From the NCBI GenBank assembly GCA_964016885.1, contig OZ024743.1, forward strand, positions 313,534,001 to 313,598,000: 64,000 nucleotides of DNA, given 5' to 3'. Each line of letters begins with the position of its first letter. The stretch's first letter is position 1. A program made the position numbers and the translations under genes. This DNA comes from Eledone cirrhosa (taxonomy: Eukaryota). Below are positions 2,570 through 62,437 of the stretch, piece by piece. Below the pieces are notes generated by a model. The model searched no databases, was not told where the DNA came from, and saw nothing but the letters and a program-made list of their open reading frames with translations.

Positions 2570-2712
2570 CTCTACATGCCTAAGTATAGCAGATTTCTTC
2601 CCGAGAGAGATAGAAAATGAGAGAGAGAGAGGGAAAGAATCGATCCCAGTAGTAGACTGGTACTTTTTTCTCGACCTCCAAGTGATGAAAGGCAAACTGA
2701 CCTCGGCTGGAA
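2570..2712 (-). mobile_element. Partial tRNA-derived SINE (octopus OK-like family)
   Basis: Matches the recurrent motif ctggtacttt..tcgacc..gatgaaaggcaaa..gacctcggc seen in many copies in this window. Confidence 0.6.
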
Positions 2713-3420
2713 TCGCTCCTTTGTCAGTGTTGAACAAACGAGCAACGATGGTTGCTGGACACTACGGCTTAATACGGGATGTTTGTTTACAAACACACCA
2801 AGCATTATAATAAATGTTCGGTGAATCTATACGTACATATATATATGTGTGCATGTATGTATATATATACATACTACAGCACGTCTGTATACATATATGC
2901 ATGTACGTATACATACTTATATTTAATTAACAGCCGTACTAAGAGTGAGAAATGAAATTTCGTTTCATTTTTTCCATTTATCGTTTTCGGTGCGCCCGGC
3001 CGATTAACTCACTCGATATGCAAATTAGGGTGCTCAGCCGTTAATATGCATAAGGAAAGTATATACTTTCAGCCGTTCAATCATCTGTCAGGAAGGTATA
3101 CGGTGCTGACGATAGCTAATAAGCTTGGAACTAGTACATCGTTCCTTTGTAAGCGTTGAACAAAAGCGCAACGATGGTTGCTAAACACTGTACGGCTTAA
3201 TTCGGGATGTTTGTTTACAAACACACCGAGCATTATAATAAATGTCCGTACGTACATTTATTATAAATCCATACGTACATATATATATATTTGTGCATGT
3301 ATGTATATATATACATACTACTGTACGTCTGTATACATATATGTATGTACGTATACATACTTATATTTAAGTAACAGCCGTACTAAGAGTGAGAAATGAA
3401 ATTTCGTTTCATTTTTTCCG
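2712..3420 (+). mobile_element. Retrozyme-like/PLE-type element: ~426-bp monomer with long terminal direct repeat and internal hammerhead
   Basis: 2712-2980 is repeated at 3138-3420; the hammerhead lies at 3100-3142; a further fragment of the family is at ~4285-4340. Confidence 0.75.
3100..3142 (+). ncRNA. Type I hammerhead ribozyme motif (one core mismatch, GGAA for GAAA)
   Basis: acggtg-CTGACGA-t.agct-aata-agct.t-GGAA-ctag-TA-catcgt: 6-bp stem I, stem II, palindromic stem III, GUA site. Confidence 0.75.
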
Positions 3421-3429
3421 TTTATATAT

Positions 3430-3836
3430 ATATATAAAGTTATAAATATAAACTATCGCCGTATTTTGACTAAAGAAATTAAAGAAATGATTTAGCCTGA
3501 TAGTGGGGTTAACTTATAATACGGTGATAGCTTATATTTACAATTTCAAATTCGCTCGCTGTTTCGAAAATATTCTTACTTGACATTACAGTTGCTAAGA
3601 TTATAGCTTCTAATTTGAATGGAAGAAGACGGGTGATGTGTTGGTGTAATGGTAGCATAGTGGTCTGGATAACCAAAGATGTGGTTTCGACTCCCATGTA
3701 CGTCAATACTTATCTTTTTCCATTTCTCCGAGGGTTCTTAACCCCACTATCAGGCTAAATAATTTCTTTAATCAAAATACAGCGATAGCTTATATTTATA
3801 ATTTCAAACTCGCTCGCTGTTTCGAAAATATTCTTA
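3430..3836. mobile_element. (TA)n-embedded element: ~258-bp permuted monomer with direct repeat plus inverted 5' arm, containing a tRNA-like gene
   Basis: 3517-3578 is repeated at ~3775-3836; 3440-3511 is the reverse complement of ~3740-3800; same family as 58842-59062. Confidence 0.7.
3635..3705 (+). tRNA. tRNA-like cloverleaf (anticodon loop CTGGATA), probably an element-borne Pol III module or pseudo-tRNA
   Basis: Acceptor GATGTGT/GTACGTC, D arm GTGT-AATGGTA-GCAT, anticodon arm GTGGT-CTGGATA-ACCAA, T arm GTGGT-TTCGACT-CCCAT; TTTTT ~10 nt downstream. Many G-U pairs. Confidence 0.55.
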
Positions 3837-4440
3837 TATATATATATATATATACGCACACACACACACACACACACACACACACATATATATATATATA
3901 AATACATTAATAAATGATATTAAAATATATTAGATTAATCAATACATAATACATTAGAATTATTGATAGCTTTAACTAGACGTAAATCCAGAGAACGTAT
4001 ATCCAGAGAATTAAATAATTGGATACGCATTACTATAAAAGTCTGCAACTGGGAGACAAGATAAAATGGGTCGCTATCATATTTGAGCCCAGAATATAAC
4101 TATGTACAACATATTCCCTGCAACCTCTCTCTCTCTGATGCGAGGGAAAAAAATGTTCAGAAAGCCTCTTTATTATCCTCATAATTCCAAGATCAAATCT
4201 ATCAATACTGATCAAGTGATGGAAAGCAAGCAATATACGTATATATATCATATATAAGTCTAATATATATATATATATATATTAGGTATCAGCCGTACTA
4301 AGAGTAGGCAATGAAATTTCGTTTCATTCTTTTCCATTTATATATATATATATAAATATATATATATATATATAGAGAGAGAGAGAGTGAGAGAGAAATA
4401 TATCCATATATATGTATATATATATCCATATATATATGTA

Positions 4441-4541
4441 TACAGGGTGTCCCCAAAATGTATGCCCACTTTGATTACCTGTACAAGCAATATTTATTAG
4501 AATGCTGTGAAGAGTGTATACATTTTTTGGAACATCCTCTA
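4441..4541. mobile_element. Tc1/mariner-type MITE remnant
   Basis: TA-cagggtgtccccaaaatgtatgcccactt ... aagagtgtatacattttttggaacatcctc-TA: imperfect ~29-bp TIRs with TA flanks. Confidence 0.6.
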
Positions 4542-4689
4542 TATATATGTATATATAGTGAAATAGAGCGGGGGAGCTGAGGAGGAGCGAGAGAGATGGA
4601 AAGAGAGAAGGGGAGTGAGGGAGAAATCCACGTGTTGCAGGAGTTTAATTAATTATAGTCACTACAGTTTATGTTTTGTCATTATGTTT

Positions 4690-60326: not shown

Positions 60327-60734
60327 TCTATATATATAAAACTGATGTTGTCTGTGTCCTCATTTTTGCAAAGTCTATATAAATCCAGATTTCTACTCCG
60401 ATTGAGTTCAAACTTGCATTTATATATTCCTTGAGGTCTAAAGATATTAACTGCCGCTTTTTCATTTTTTTTATATTCTGTTGTTAAAGGGTGTTAGGCG
60501 CGGGTTATCCATCTCCGTCGCGCTCTTATAATATCTGTCTGTATGCCTGGCTGTCTGCATAACGTCATTGCTGACGTTTATCTTCGATACATTCACACAC
60601 AGACACGCACACACACACACGCACGCACGCACGCACGCACGCACGTACGCACGCACGCACGCACGCACGCACGCACGCACGCACGCACGCGCGCACACGT
60701 ACACGCACATATATATATATACATATATACTTTT

Positions 60735-61330
60735 ATGGTGGCTGCCAACTCGTTTTCGAGTACAGCCACTACTTTATAGCCATGTAGGAGAACTCCTACC
60801 GATACGCTGAACGAGGGTGATTTTTAGTCCAGCCAGCTACCTGAAAACTCTGGTACAAACACTATACCTGTGACAATTATTGACACATAGTGCTGGGCCC
60901 TTGGTACCATGTGACGACAAGTGCAGAGAGATCTCCAGATATAAAGCAATGCCTGTGCCGTGAAGCTTTTATAGTGAGCAAAGTCACTGCACAAAGCCAG
61001 TCCTACTCTCTTAACCAAGATGATATTTACCAAAAAGAAGAACAAGTCAACATCATTGGATACCATTAGAGTTGCAGGTGTTATATCAGAGTTTTCCTTC
61101 TCCTAGAATTCTGCCTTGACAAAGGCTAAGGAGTCATCTCTCCCGGTGATTTTGGATGGCCATTGACTCTTAAGAGCTCCTTTGCCATTTGACAGGTTTT
61201 GTTTTTACTCCTGCATGATGTCCAAAGTCACCCTCCTCACCAAGAAACCTTGGTGGGGTTGCCAGTTTAGTCGCCAACGACCCGATCATGAAACAGGTTG
61301 TACTGGGATACATGTTACCAGTAGCACCAT
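60735..61330 (-). mobile_element. RTE-derived non-autonomous element (RTE 5'UTR joined to RTE-like 3' end), ~595 bp
   Basis: Reverse strand contains ctaggagaaggaaaactctga, typical of RTE 5'UTRs, and ends tcgaaaacgagttggcagccacc. Confidence 0.7.
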
Positions 61331-61449
61331 ACATATATACATACATATATACATATATATATACATACATACATACAACCATCTTGCCCAGGTTTATGAG
61401 CATGAAAAACAAAAATACATATATACATACATATATACATACATATATA

Positions 61450-61892
61450 CATGGTGGCTGCCAACTCGTTTTCGAGTACGGCCACTACTTTATATCCATG
61501 TAGGAGAACCCCTACCGATGCGCTGAACGAGTGTAACTTTTTAGTCCAGCCAGCGACTTGAAAACTCTGGTACAAGCACTACACTTGTGACAATTATTGA
61601 CACATAGTGCTGGGCCCTTGGTACCATGTGACGACAAGTGCAGAGAGATCTCCAGATATAAAGCAATGCCTGTGCCGTGAAGCTTTTATAGTGAGCAAAG
61701 TCACTGCACAAAGCCAGTCACACTCTCTTAACCAAGATGATATTTACCAAAAAGAAGAACAAGTCAACATCATTGGATACCATCAGGGTTGCATGTGTTA
61801 TATCAGAGTTTTCCTCCTTCTAGAATTCTTCGTTGACAAAGGCTAAGGCGTCATCTCTCACGGACAAAGGCTAAGGGGTCATCTCTCCTGGA
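61450..61892 (-). mobile_element. RTE-derived non-autonomous element, 5'-truncated
   Basis: Near-identical to 60735-61150; small tandem duplication gacaaaggctaagg.gtcatctctc at the truncation point. Confidence 0.75.
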
Positions 61893-62087
61893 TATCTCTA
61901 CTTATATATACACATATATATACACATATATACATATACACATATATACACATATACATACATATATATATATATATACATATACAAACACATATACACA
62001 TATATAGATATACACATATACACATAAAAATATATGTATATATACACACACACACACACATACACACATATATTTATATATATATAT

Positions 62088-62437
62088 ATATATACAATAT
62101 ATTAACAAATGGAAACTATATTTATAAAACCATATTTATTTCATTATACATATTTCAAGGGCCACGAAGGCAAACTATGGTGCGCTTTCATCGGATAAAA
62201 TATAATATAGGTTAGTTTTATGAATAAATATTGACATACCCTGAAAATCCCAGGAGATTCCAACCAGAATGGTTGCATTTTTTCAGGGTATGTCAATATT
62301 TATTTATTAAACTAACCTATATTATATTTTATCTGATGAAAGCGCACCATAGTTTGCCTTGGTGGCCCTTGAAATATGTATAATGAAATAAATATGGTTT
62401 TATAAATATAGTTTCCATTTGTTAATATATTGTATAT
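62088..62437. repeat. Palindromic element (~158-bp arms, ~30-bp spacer) next to (TA)n
   Basis: 62088-62247 is the reverse complement of 62278-62437. Confidence 0.92.
62325..62390 (+). ncRNA. Type I hammerhead ribozyme with canonical core
   Basis: tattttat-CTGATGA-aag.cgcacca..tggtggcc.ctt-GAAA-tatgta-TA-atgaaata. The mirror copy at 62137-62202 (-) has CCGATGA. Confidence 0.8.

What the first reader, a model, noticed from the sequence alone, without database searches (positions are those of the whole stretch)
2712..62437. Community of small hammerhead-ribozyme elements (retrozyme/Penelope-dependent) living in (TA)n microsatellites
Seen: about ten hammerhead-like motifs with different stems but shared topology (3100, 20778/20865, 21223, 34531, 35021/36247, 47110, 47357, 58395, 62137/62325; weaker at 19722 and 58071). 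Nearly all lie in short non-coding units beside (TA)n, built as long palindromes or as permuted monomers with terminal direct repeats. Established: Penelope-like elements carry minimal type I hammerheads in their pseudo-LTRs, produce direct or inverted terminal duplications, and non-autonomous hammerhead retrozymes exist in animals. Inference: this genome hosts many distinct ribozyme-bearing PLE-derived or PLE-mobilised families at roughly one per 6-7 kb that favour TA repeats; PLE GIY-YIG remnants in the window (45504-45935, 35380-35950) point to the likely machinery.
Basis: partly seen in the sequence, partly recalled or inferred. Interest (0 to 1): 0.9.

Follow-up and report, generated by a model that had tools for sequence, protein, structure and literature searches.

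The report
Penelope retrotransposon ends carrying hammerhead ribozymes
This animal genome is strewn with hammerhead-ribozyme motifs in TA repeats: most are clipped, often mirror-image ends of Penelope-like jumping genes (a known kind), and a few are short gene-less units that likely hitch-hike on the same enzymes.

Summary
The motifs are real type I hammerheads: every listed coordinate belongs to a multi-copy hammerhead family, and an 820-kb genome sample gave 52 intact-core hits against 0-4 in shuffles (about one per 16 kb); Rfam finds none in the window. Eight families (C, D, E, F, H, I, J, K) run upstream into RT plus GIY-YIG reading frames, seven with Hydra-clade motifs: they are 5'-truncated Penelope ends, not retrozymes. 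Three (A 320, B ~430, G ~630 nt) have no ORF and are circularly permuted, so retrozyme-like. The palindromes are the known head-to-head PLE insertion; in 148 of 161 scored pairs one arm stops at an inner TA site and the other carries an extra tail, and A and B obey the same rule, which ties these retrozymes to PLE enzymes. 5' ends do not gather at the cleavage site. The '35380-35950 GIY-YIG remnant' is 3' UTR. Extras: family-wide U4A and U4C cores, and a tRNA-bearing, hammerhead-less unit with the PLE signature. Cleavage, circles and expression are untested.

The parts
2712..3425 (+). Family B, ORF-less ~430-nt unit, 1.7 units in tandem; hammerhead core 3106, cleavage after 3136 (this copy A13G); tail fragment at 4268-4341
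19571..19791 (+). Family J, PLE 3' end as palindrome; type I fold with family-wide U4A core at 19723; further short copies 19465-19540 and 44521-44591 (both -)
20703..21071 (.). Family C, PLE 3' end (EN with CCHH-type cysteines) as palindrome; U3-A8 cores at -20811 and +20869; right arm has the tail
21084..21495 (.). Family A, ORF-less 320-nt unit as head-to-head pair; intact U3-A8 hammerhead at -21264 (cleavage 21228); right arm has the 28-nt tail
34487..34610 (+). Family D, PLE 3' end; core 34535 (this copy C3A)
34804..36350 (.). Family E, PLE 3' UTR/pLTR as head-to-head pair (428-nt arms; 518-nt spacer is 3' UTR; left arm has the tail); hammerheads near -35060 and +36263, U4C core, degenerate in these copies
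44966..47250 (.). Family F, one PLE insertion: left arm (-) with ORF fragments and 3' UTR, right arm (+, 46113-47250) with hammerhead core 47116, cleavage after 47196
45504..45944 (-). GIY-YIG endonuclease remnant of family F (Hydra-type: no CCHH; CxxC and CxH around E and N)
47292..47694 (+). Family G, ORF-less ~630-nt unit, here with an internal deletion and terminal direct repeat; core 47363, cleavage 47431
47686..47900 (.).
58021..58295 (+). Family O, minimal hammerhead core 58071 with two 3' end sites before (TA)n; ORF link not tested
58316..58502 (-). Family H, PLE 3' end with short inverted arm; core at -58434 (U3-A8 in this copy, C3-G8 in most others)
62087..62492 (.). Family I, PLE 3' end as palindrome; cores -62194 (U4C in this copy) and +62333 (intact); tail-only fragment at 44384-44473
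3437..3836 (.). Family M, ~270-nt tRNA-bearing unit (Rfam tRNA 3635-3705) with tandem and inverted PLE-type ends, no hammerhead found on the tRNA strand; second copy 58839-59062

Best explanation
These are hammerhead-bearing 3' ends of Penelope-like retrotransposons (seven of eight with Hydra-clade motifs) lodged in (TA)n, plus a few short ORF-less retrozyme-like units that are likely mobilised by the same PLE proteins. Shown: hammerhead folds far above chance, ORF links for 8 families, circular permutation for 3, TA-abutting ends, two fixed 3' end sites per family, and one of each site in 148 of 161 inverted pairs. Inferred: the PLE protein cuts both strands of a TA tract; each DNA end primes reverse transcription at one of two adjacent internal start sites on the same RNA sequence (uncut tandem transcript or ligated circle); both cDNAs stop early at unrelated points and join at short palindromes or microhomologies, giving a head-to-head pair with one tailed arm; one end alone gives solo or partial-tandem copies. 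Inferred: the ribozyme is not needed for this step; it may cut and circularise tandem RNA, mostly as a dimer through the palindromic stem III.
For: ORF links: E (L091; 10 of 15 loci hit), F (L033, L034, L038), J (L097, L107, L231), C (L098 GIY-YIG, Pfam E 1e-7), I (L291, L292), K (L293, L294), H (L295 only), D (L330). Hydra motifs CxCx5C linker, no CCHH, CxxC and CxH around E and N, RWR near the N-terminus, read against PMC8557442 section 11. Permutation: the start of the unit is preceded by its own tail in A 19 of 21, B 26 of 33, G 7 of 11 copies; longest circular ORFs 33, 58, 58 aa. End rule: 148 of 161 scored pairs, 15 more unscored; A 21 of 24, B 10 of 15. Arms of a pair are closer than arms of other pairs in A, C, H, I, K. 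In A the tail-less arm reaches further upstream in 15 of 22 pairs and the tailed arm in 7 (counted by hand), as two independent truncations would give. Stem I covaries within B and H (0 of 500 shuffles reach the covariation score). 5' ends within 10 nt of the cleavage site: G 1 of 27, B 1 of 51, I 1 of 126. In vitro an anole PLE extends both strands, starts at two internal sites that bound the tail, and does not need its ribozyme (PMC11167929). ORF-less family N shares a 28-nt hammerhead stretch with H and 178 nt with A.
Against: No autonomous partner was found for A, B or G: their best matches to the eight ORF-linked 3' ends are an 18-nt match (A to H, E 0.027) or none. G never forms inverted pairs and uses one end site (22 of 27). 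In J, arms of a pair are no closer than arms of other pairs (rank 0.50). In A, 7 of 46 5' ends lie within 10 nt of the cleavage site against 3.0 expected (confounded by a flanking inverted repeat). 13 of 161 pairs break the rule. H rests on one locus with nested insertions. Pfam did not name an RT in any of the RT-side fragments; RT identity rests on the YRDD motif and on domain order. Covariation in A1 includes one row of another family, and cells count related sequences, not events. In the anole study top and bottom strand did not differ in start site.
Confidence: 0.82

Rival explanations
1. The palindromes arise by self-priming (snap-back) of one nascent strand or of an antisense template, not by priming at both DNA ends.
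For: Junctions cluster at short palindromes in J and I; arms share variants; self-priming on an antisense template was proposed in PMC3846280 (passages).
Against: A copy of a first cDNA cannot gain a tail that the first lacks, so the tailed arm should always hold the spacer; in A it does so in only 7 of 22 pairs. Some I junctions sit on a 7-nt palindrome with a one-base centre, too tight for a hairpin (inference).
Confidence: 0.2
3. The palindromes are MITEs or foldback DNA transposons that target TA repeats.
For: Long inverted arms, no ORF in short copies, TA flanks.
Against: Arms end at two different sites, inner ends vary freely, solo and tandem copies are common, and long copies lead to RT plus GIY-YIG frames.
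Confidence: 0.02
4. The motifs are chance matches in AT-rich repeat DNA.
For: With one mismatch and no score cut-off the window is not clearly above shuffles (10 vs 4.65); a satellite gave 7 false hits.
Against: 52 vs 0-4 in 820 kb; compensatory stem changes.
Confidence: 0.01

Closest known systems
Hydra-clade Penelope-like elements (Craig et al. 2021, PMC8557442; section 11 and supplement part 2 of 59 read)
   Same: C-terminal GIY-YIG, CxCx5C linker, no CCHH, RWx motif, 3' hammerhead, (TA)n target, inverted 5'-truncated copy, tail at one end; the supplement lists one octopus family.
   Different: There a small set of families; here at least seven in one 64-kb window, 58,082 first-look candidates for one EN, 3' UTRs of 1-1.6 kb, tails of about 28-180 nt.
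Metazoan non-LTR retrozymes (Cervera and de la Pena 2020, PMC7229834, parts 2-4 of 6; Li et al. 2026, bioRxiv 10.64898/2026.07.22.740005, parts 1-3 of 5)
   Same: A, B, G, N: 310-630 nt, ORF-less, low GC, tandem units with one type I hammerhead each.
   Different: In the parts read they are direct tandems tied to PLEs by co-occurrence and pLTR similarity; here A and B also show the inverted, one-tail, TA-abutting PLE insertion signature. Circles and cleavage not shown here.
Minimal PLE hammerheads (Cervera and de la Pena 2014, PMC4209133, parts 1-2 of 4)
   Same: Type I, palindromic stem III (41 of 52), U3-A8 variant (9 of 52), opposite-strand pairs 100-700 bp apart, mostly truncated PLEs.
   Different: Estimated 1.4-2.4 x 10^5 intact cores in 3.0 Gb against about 9,000 in Xenopus (that paper) and 126,247 in axolotl (PMC7229834); family-wide U4A (J) and U4C (E) cores.
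Poseidon element PAc in vitro (Frangieh et al. 2024, PMC11167929, parts 1-2 of 4)
   Same: Two internal start sites bounding the tail, both strands extended, AT-rich target, ribozyme dispensable.
   Different: No strand preference of start site was seen there; here the two arms of an insertion almost always use different sites.
Schistosome SINE-like hammerhead elements (seen only in a review's legend and reference list, PMC6765202 passages)
   Same: Family M joins a tRNA-like, promoter-like part to a tandem mobile unit.
   Different: M has no hammerhead found and shows PLE-type inverted insertions.

Membership tests
Type I hammerhead ribozyme | Conserved core with three helices and NUH site | tested here: met
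   intact in A, C, F, I(+) window copies; point changes in B, D, G, I(-) copies
Type I hammerhead ribozyme | Compensatory changes in stems within families | tested here: met
   B and H stem I, 0 of 500 shuffles reach the covariation score; one or two pairs carry the signal
Type I hammerhead ribozyme | Match to Rfam hammerhead models | tested here: not met
Type I hammerhead ribozyme | Self-cleavage | not testable with these tools
   no assay; no 5'-end pile-up at the site in genomic copies
EN+ Penelope-like element | One ORF, RT then C-terminal GIY-YIG, upstream of the hammerhead-bearing end | tested here: met
   C, D, E, F, H, I, J, K; D and C seen mainly through the EN side; all copies seen are broken
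EN+ Penelope-like element | Partial tandems, inverted 5'-truncated copy, tail at one end | tested here: met
EN+ Penelope-like element | RT phylogeny within PLEs | not tested
   no tree built; Pfam gave no RT hit
Hydra clade | CxCx5C linker, no CCHH, CxxC and CxH near E and N | tested here: met
   alignment A3 and ORFs; D, H, J by tblastn to these proteins only
Hydra clade | N-terminal RWK and DKT motifs | tested here: inconclusive
   RWR and DKI in two ORFs
Hydra clade | (TA)n target | tested here: met
Hydra clade (family C) | No CCHH in EN | tested here: not met
   L098/L111 EN has CxxC between GIY and YIG and an upstream CxxC linker: Neptune/Nematis-like
Non-LTR retrozyme (A, B, G) | Short ORF-less tandem unit with one type I hammerhead per unit | tested here: met
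Non-LTR retrozyme (A, B, G) | Expressed as linear and circular monomer RNA | not testable with these tools
   no RNA run listed
Non-LTR retrozyme (C, D, E, F, H, I, J, K) | No coding capacity in the full element | tested here: not met
MITE / TIR transposon | Equal terminal inverted repeats and fixed internal structure | tested here: not met

The most novel reading that the evidence does not exclude
Penelope enzymes insert by priming both ends of a cut TA tract at two different, assigned start sites on one RNA (one per protomer of a dimer), and this genome hosts a whole ecology of parasites on that reaction: circular hammerhead retrozymes (A, B, N), a one-site, never-inverted one (G), and a tRNA-promoter SINE that uses a Penelope instead of a LINE (M), at one of the highest ribozyme densities reported for an animal, with successful families fixing U4A or U4C cores.
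Probability: 0.35. Interest if true: 0.82.

Novelty: new variant of a known kind. Interest (0 to 1): 0.56.

Why it matters
Which enzyme moves animal retrozymes, and how PLEs make their inverted, one-tailed insertions, are open questions. This genome offers tens of thousands of natural insertions per family in which ORF-less units carry the same two-site signature as true PLE ends. That makes the partner question and the two-ended priming model directly testable with the existing in vitro PLE assay. It also shows that Rfam-based annotation misses a ribozyme class present about every 16 kb, and that such palindromes could be misfiled as MITEs.

Tried and rejected
Rfam scans found no hammerhead. 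No RNA holder listed; contigs of three runs of unrecorded kind from one sample held the C and A sequences, but no listed piece spanned a palindrome, so they say nothing on expression or on assembly artefacts. Absence of ORFs within 1.5 kb was rejected as evidence for a retrozyme: family I had a hit in only 1 of 25 such loci yet proved ORF-linked on 10-kb stretches. The sharp 5' boundary of family I was first read as one turn of a circle and rejected when longer copies appeared. 5'-end pile-up at the cleavage site: not found in B, G, I; weak and confounded in A. Family D's site count is inflated by a SINE inside the reference and was not used, nor was the pooled coverage figure. Pfam on ten ORF fragments named only one GIY-YIG; the Atlas gave unnamed eukaryotic clusters and one GIY-YIG cluster. 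Per-family counts of core against stem conservation were not obtained, so how strongly selection keeps the cores, U4A and U4C included, stays open. A shared hairpin in the tails was seen by eye and not tested. Lunse et al. 2017 on dimeric PLE hammerhead variants was not held; it and unseen supplements may already list U4 variants. Earlier scan notes: none.
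Full report
OBSERVATION. The window lies in a 3.0-Gb genome (G000:C4:313534001-313598000). A type I hammerhead descriptor allowing C3-G8 or U3-A8 found eight of the listed sites. Against 60 local dinucleotide shuffles the window gave 8 vs 1.4 (score>=9, one mismatch) and 4 vs 0.17 (no mismatch), 0 of 60 reaching either; without a score cut-off the excess was weak, 10 vs 4.65, 3 of 60. 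Because the descriptor was written after reading the window, I tested it on 82 evenly spaced 10-kb stretches (820 kb): 59 intact-core hits, 52 after dropping 7 from a satellite in L119, against 0-4 in 8 shuffles and 2 in the reversed decoy; 43 were C3-G8, 9 U3-A8, and 41 had a palindromic stem III. That is one per 16 kb, or about 184,000 genome-wide (Poisson range 136,000-243,000, wider in truth since tandems cluster). (TA)4 began within 250 nt downstream of the cleavage site in 42 of 52, and within 250 nt upstream of the core in 24 of 52, against 20.5% for random non-TA points. Rfam found no hammerhead. The weak sites are real too: 19723 is family J, whose 5'-complete copies shown carry a U4A core in a full three-stem fold, and 58071 belongs to a family with a conserved minimal hammerhead (25 stretches shown). 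Stem I covaries within B and H: 96% and 87% of cells paired, 0 of 500 shuffles reaching the covariation score, with one or two pairs carrying the signal and one foreign row in A1.

WHAT EACH FAMILY IS. The decisive question was whether a family runs upstream into a reading frame or into its own tail. E: 10 of 15 loci hit PLE protein, and L091 shows pLTR-ORF-pLTR; the window's 35400-35930 maps about 650-1170 nt behind the stop codon, so it is 3' UTR and not a GIY-YIG remnant. F: L033, L034 and L038 join the EN to the 47116-type hammerhead through 1.5 kb of UTR, so window 44966-47250 is one head-to-head insertion that includes the 45504-45944 EN. J: L097, L107, L231. C: L111 and L098, EN Pfam E 1e-7. 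I: L291, L292. K: L293, L294. H: L295 only, with nested insertions. D: L330. The EN-side motifs of E, F, I and K frames are CxCx5C, no CCHH, and CxxC and CxH around E and N, with RWR and DKI upstream. This fits the Hydra clade as defined in PMC8557442 section 11, whose supplement lists (TA)n targets and one octopus family. D, H and J are placed there by tblastn only; C has Neptune/Nematis-type cysteines. No tree was built and Pfam named no RT. In contrast A (320 nt), B (428-465 nt) and G (about 630 nt) occur as natural tandems (L017; L200, L295; L169). Their unit start is preceded by their own tail in 19 of 21, 26 of 33 and 7 of 11 copies, the rest being inversion junctions, TA runs, probe mismatches or one chimera. 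They have no ORF above 58 aa and fold stably as circles. A related family N (310 nt, not in the window) shares 178 nt with A and a 28-nt hammerhead stretch with H. No parent was found for A, B or G. Family O was not followed.

HOW IT LIKELY WORKS. Each family has two 3' end sites next to (TA)n: an inner TA-like site and an outer one (A +142 and about +170 from the cleavage site; B about +216 and +272; I +57 and +141). In head-to-head pairs found in all held loci, one arm used each site in 148 of 161 scored pairs (A 21/24, B 10/15, C 17/17, E 2/2, H 12/13, I 32/35, J 24/24, K 30/31; 7 inner-inner, 6 outer-outer, 15 unscored). The C query included the tail start, and probe mismatches can mis-score. 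That the tail is often at one end only is known (PMC8557442, PMC3846280, passages), and the anole PLE starts reverse transcription at two internal sites bounding the tail, extends both strands and needs no ribozyme (PMC11167929). The arms of a pair are closer to each other than to other pairs in A, C, H, I, K but not J, so they mostly copy one source or were later homogenised. Either arm can be the longer (A: tail-less 15, tailed 7 of 22, counted by hand). 5' ends do not gather at the cleavage site (G 1/27, B 1/51, I 1/126; A 7/46 vs 3.0 expected). I therefore favour priming from both cut ends on an uncut tandem or ligated circular RNA, with independent early stops joined at short palindromes; this step is inferred. 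Snap-back self-priming remains the main rival. G is the exception: one end site (22 of 27) and no inverted pairs among its loci.

COMPARISON AND NOVELTY. Minimal hammerheads in pLTRs, the U3-A8 variant, opposite-strand pairs and the reading 'mostly truncated PLEs' are in PMC4209133. Retrozymes and the proposal that PLEs move them are in PMC7229834, and pLTR kinship in vertebrates in the 2026 preprint (supplements closed). So the core of the finding is known in kind. I did not find in eight searches a count of end pairing, retrozymes with inverted one-tail insertions, a Hydra-clade expansion of this size, or a tRNA-bearing unit with the PLE signature. The library lacks most subscription papers, Lunse et al. 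2017 was not held, and Repbase was not searched. A 2026 octopus repeat annotation has no occurrence of 'hammerhead' or 'ribozyme' in its main text (PMC13282606; part 1 of 3 and term search); a squid genome paper reports 235 Rfam hammerheads (PMC6962438, passage). A natural U4C core is noted in a viroid, and U4A does not occur in the main text of PMC3088659 (passages).

FAMILY M. A ~270-nt unit with a tRNA-like part (Rfam 32-45 bits) forms tandems (ten matches at 272-nt spacing at C4:61.01 Mb; 1,704 first-look candidates) and inverted pairs in (TA)n with two end sites. Of 14 loci, 7 had inverted arms: 5 one-of-each, 1 outer-outer, 1 unscored (read by eye). No hammerhead was found on the tRNA strand. 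It looks like a SINE that uses a Penelope; this is inferred from the signature alone.

VERDICT. Observation confirmed; interpretation partly supported. Mostly truncated PLE ends, with a true minority of retrozyme-like units that carry the PLE insertion signature. New variant of a known kind; interest 0.56.

Noticed in passing
window 3437-3836 and 58839-59062; L351-L364: Family M: ~270-nt tRNA-bearing, hammerhead-less unit with tandem and inverted PLE-type insertions in (TA)n; candidate SINE moved by a Penelope-like element.
   Followed up: partly
window 19723; L206-L235: Family J (16 sites in 820 kb) keeps a U4A core in an otherwise complete type I fold; family E keeps U4C. Dead or unusual ribozymes in successful families.
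   Followed up: partly
L087:6415-7984, L198, L345: Family N: 310-nt ORF-less unit in tandem plus inverted arrays; body 77% like A but with an H-like hammerhead, suggesting ribozyme exchange.
   Followed up: partly
tails of C, E, G, H, I, J, K; also window 2370-2440 and 47920-48010: A short hairpin with similar 4-nt arms follows the inner end site in many families, a possible protein-binding signal; two further tail-like stretches of unassigned families lie in the window. Seen by eye.
   Followed up: no
L094-L145, L299-L309, L331-L349: Many further hammerhead families absent from the window: 36 distinct stem and core signatures among 52 hits.
   Followed up: no
L295:5329-8740; window 46240-46700: PLE 3' UTRs hold long TA/TG microsatellites into which other PLE ends insert, so these elements may seed their own targets.
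   Followed up: no
window 2640-2711, 4687-4865, 18464-18668, 20302-20513, 49773-50200, 54780-55401: An abundant SINE-like repeat of about 200 nt (72 sites in 820 kb), once as a 205-nt tandem; family B is joined to one copy at 2712.
   Followed up: no
L158, L159, L173 (C1:162.56 Mb): A 1.4-kb higher-order tandem in which each unit holds one complete family G monomer beside another repeat.
   Followed up: no
window 44832-44920, 59625-59773, 62771-63038: Short tandem repeats of 33, 29/54 and 83 nt unrelated to the hammerhead families.
   Followed up: no
   Followed up: no
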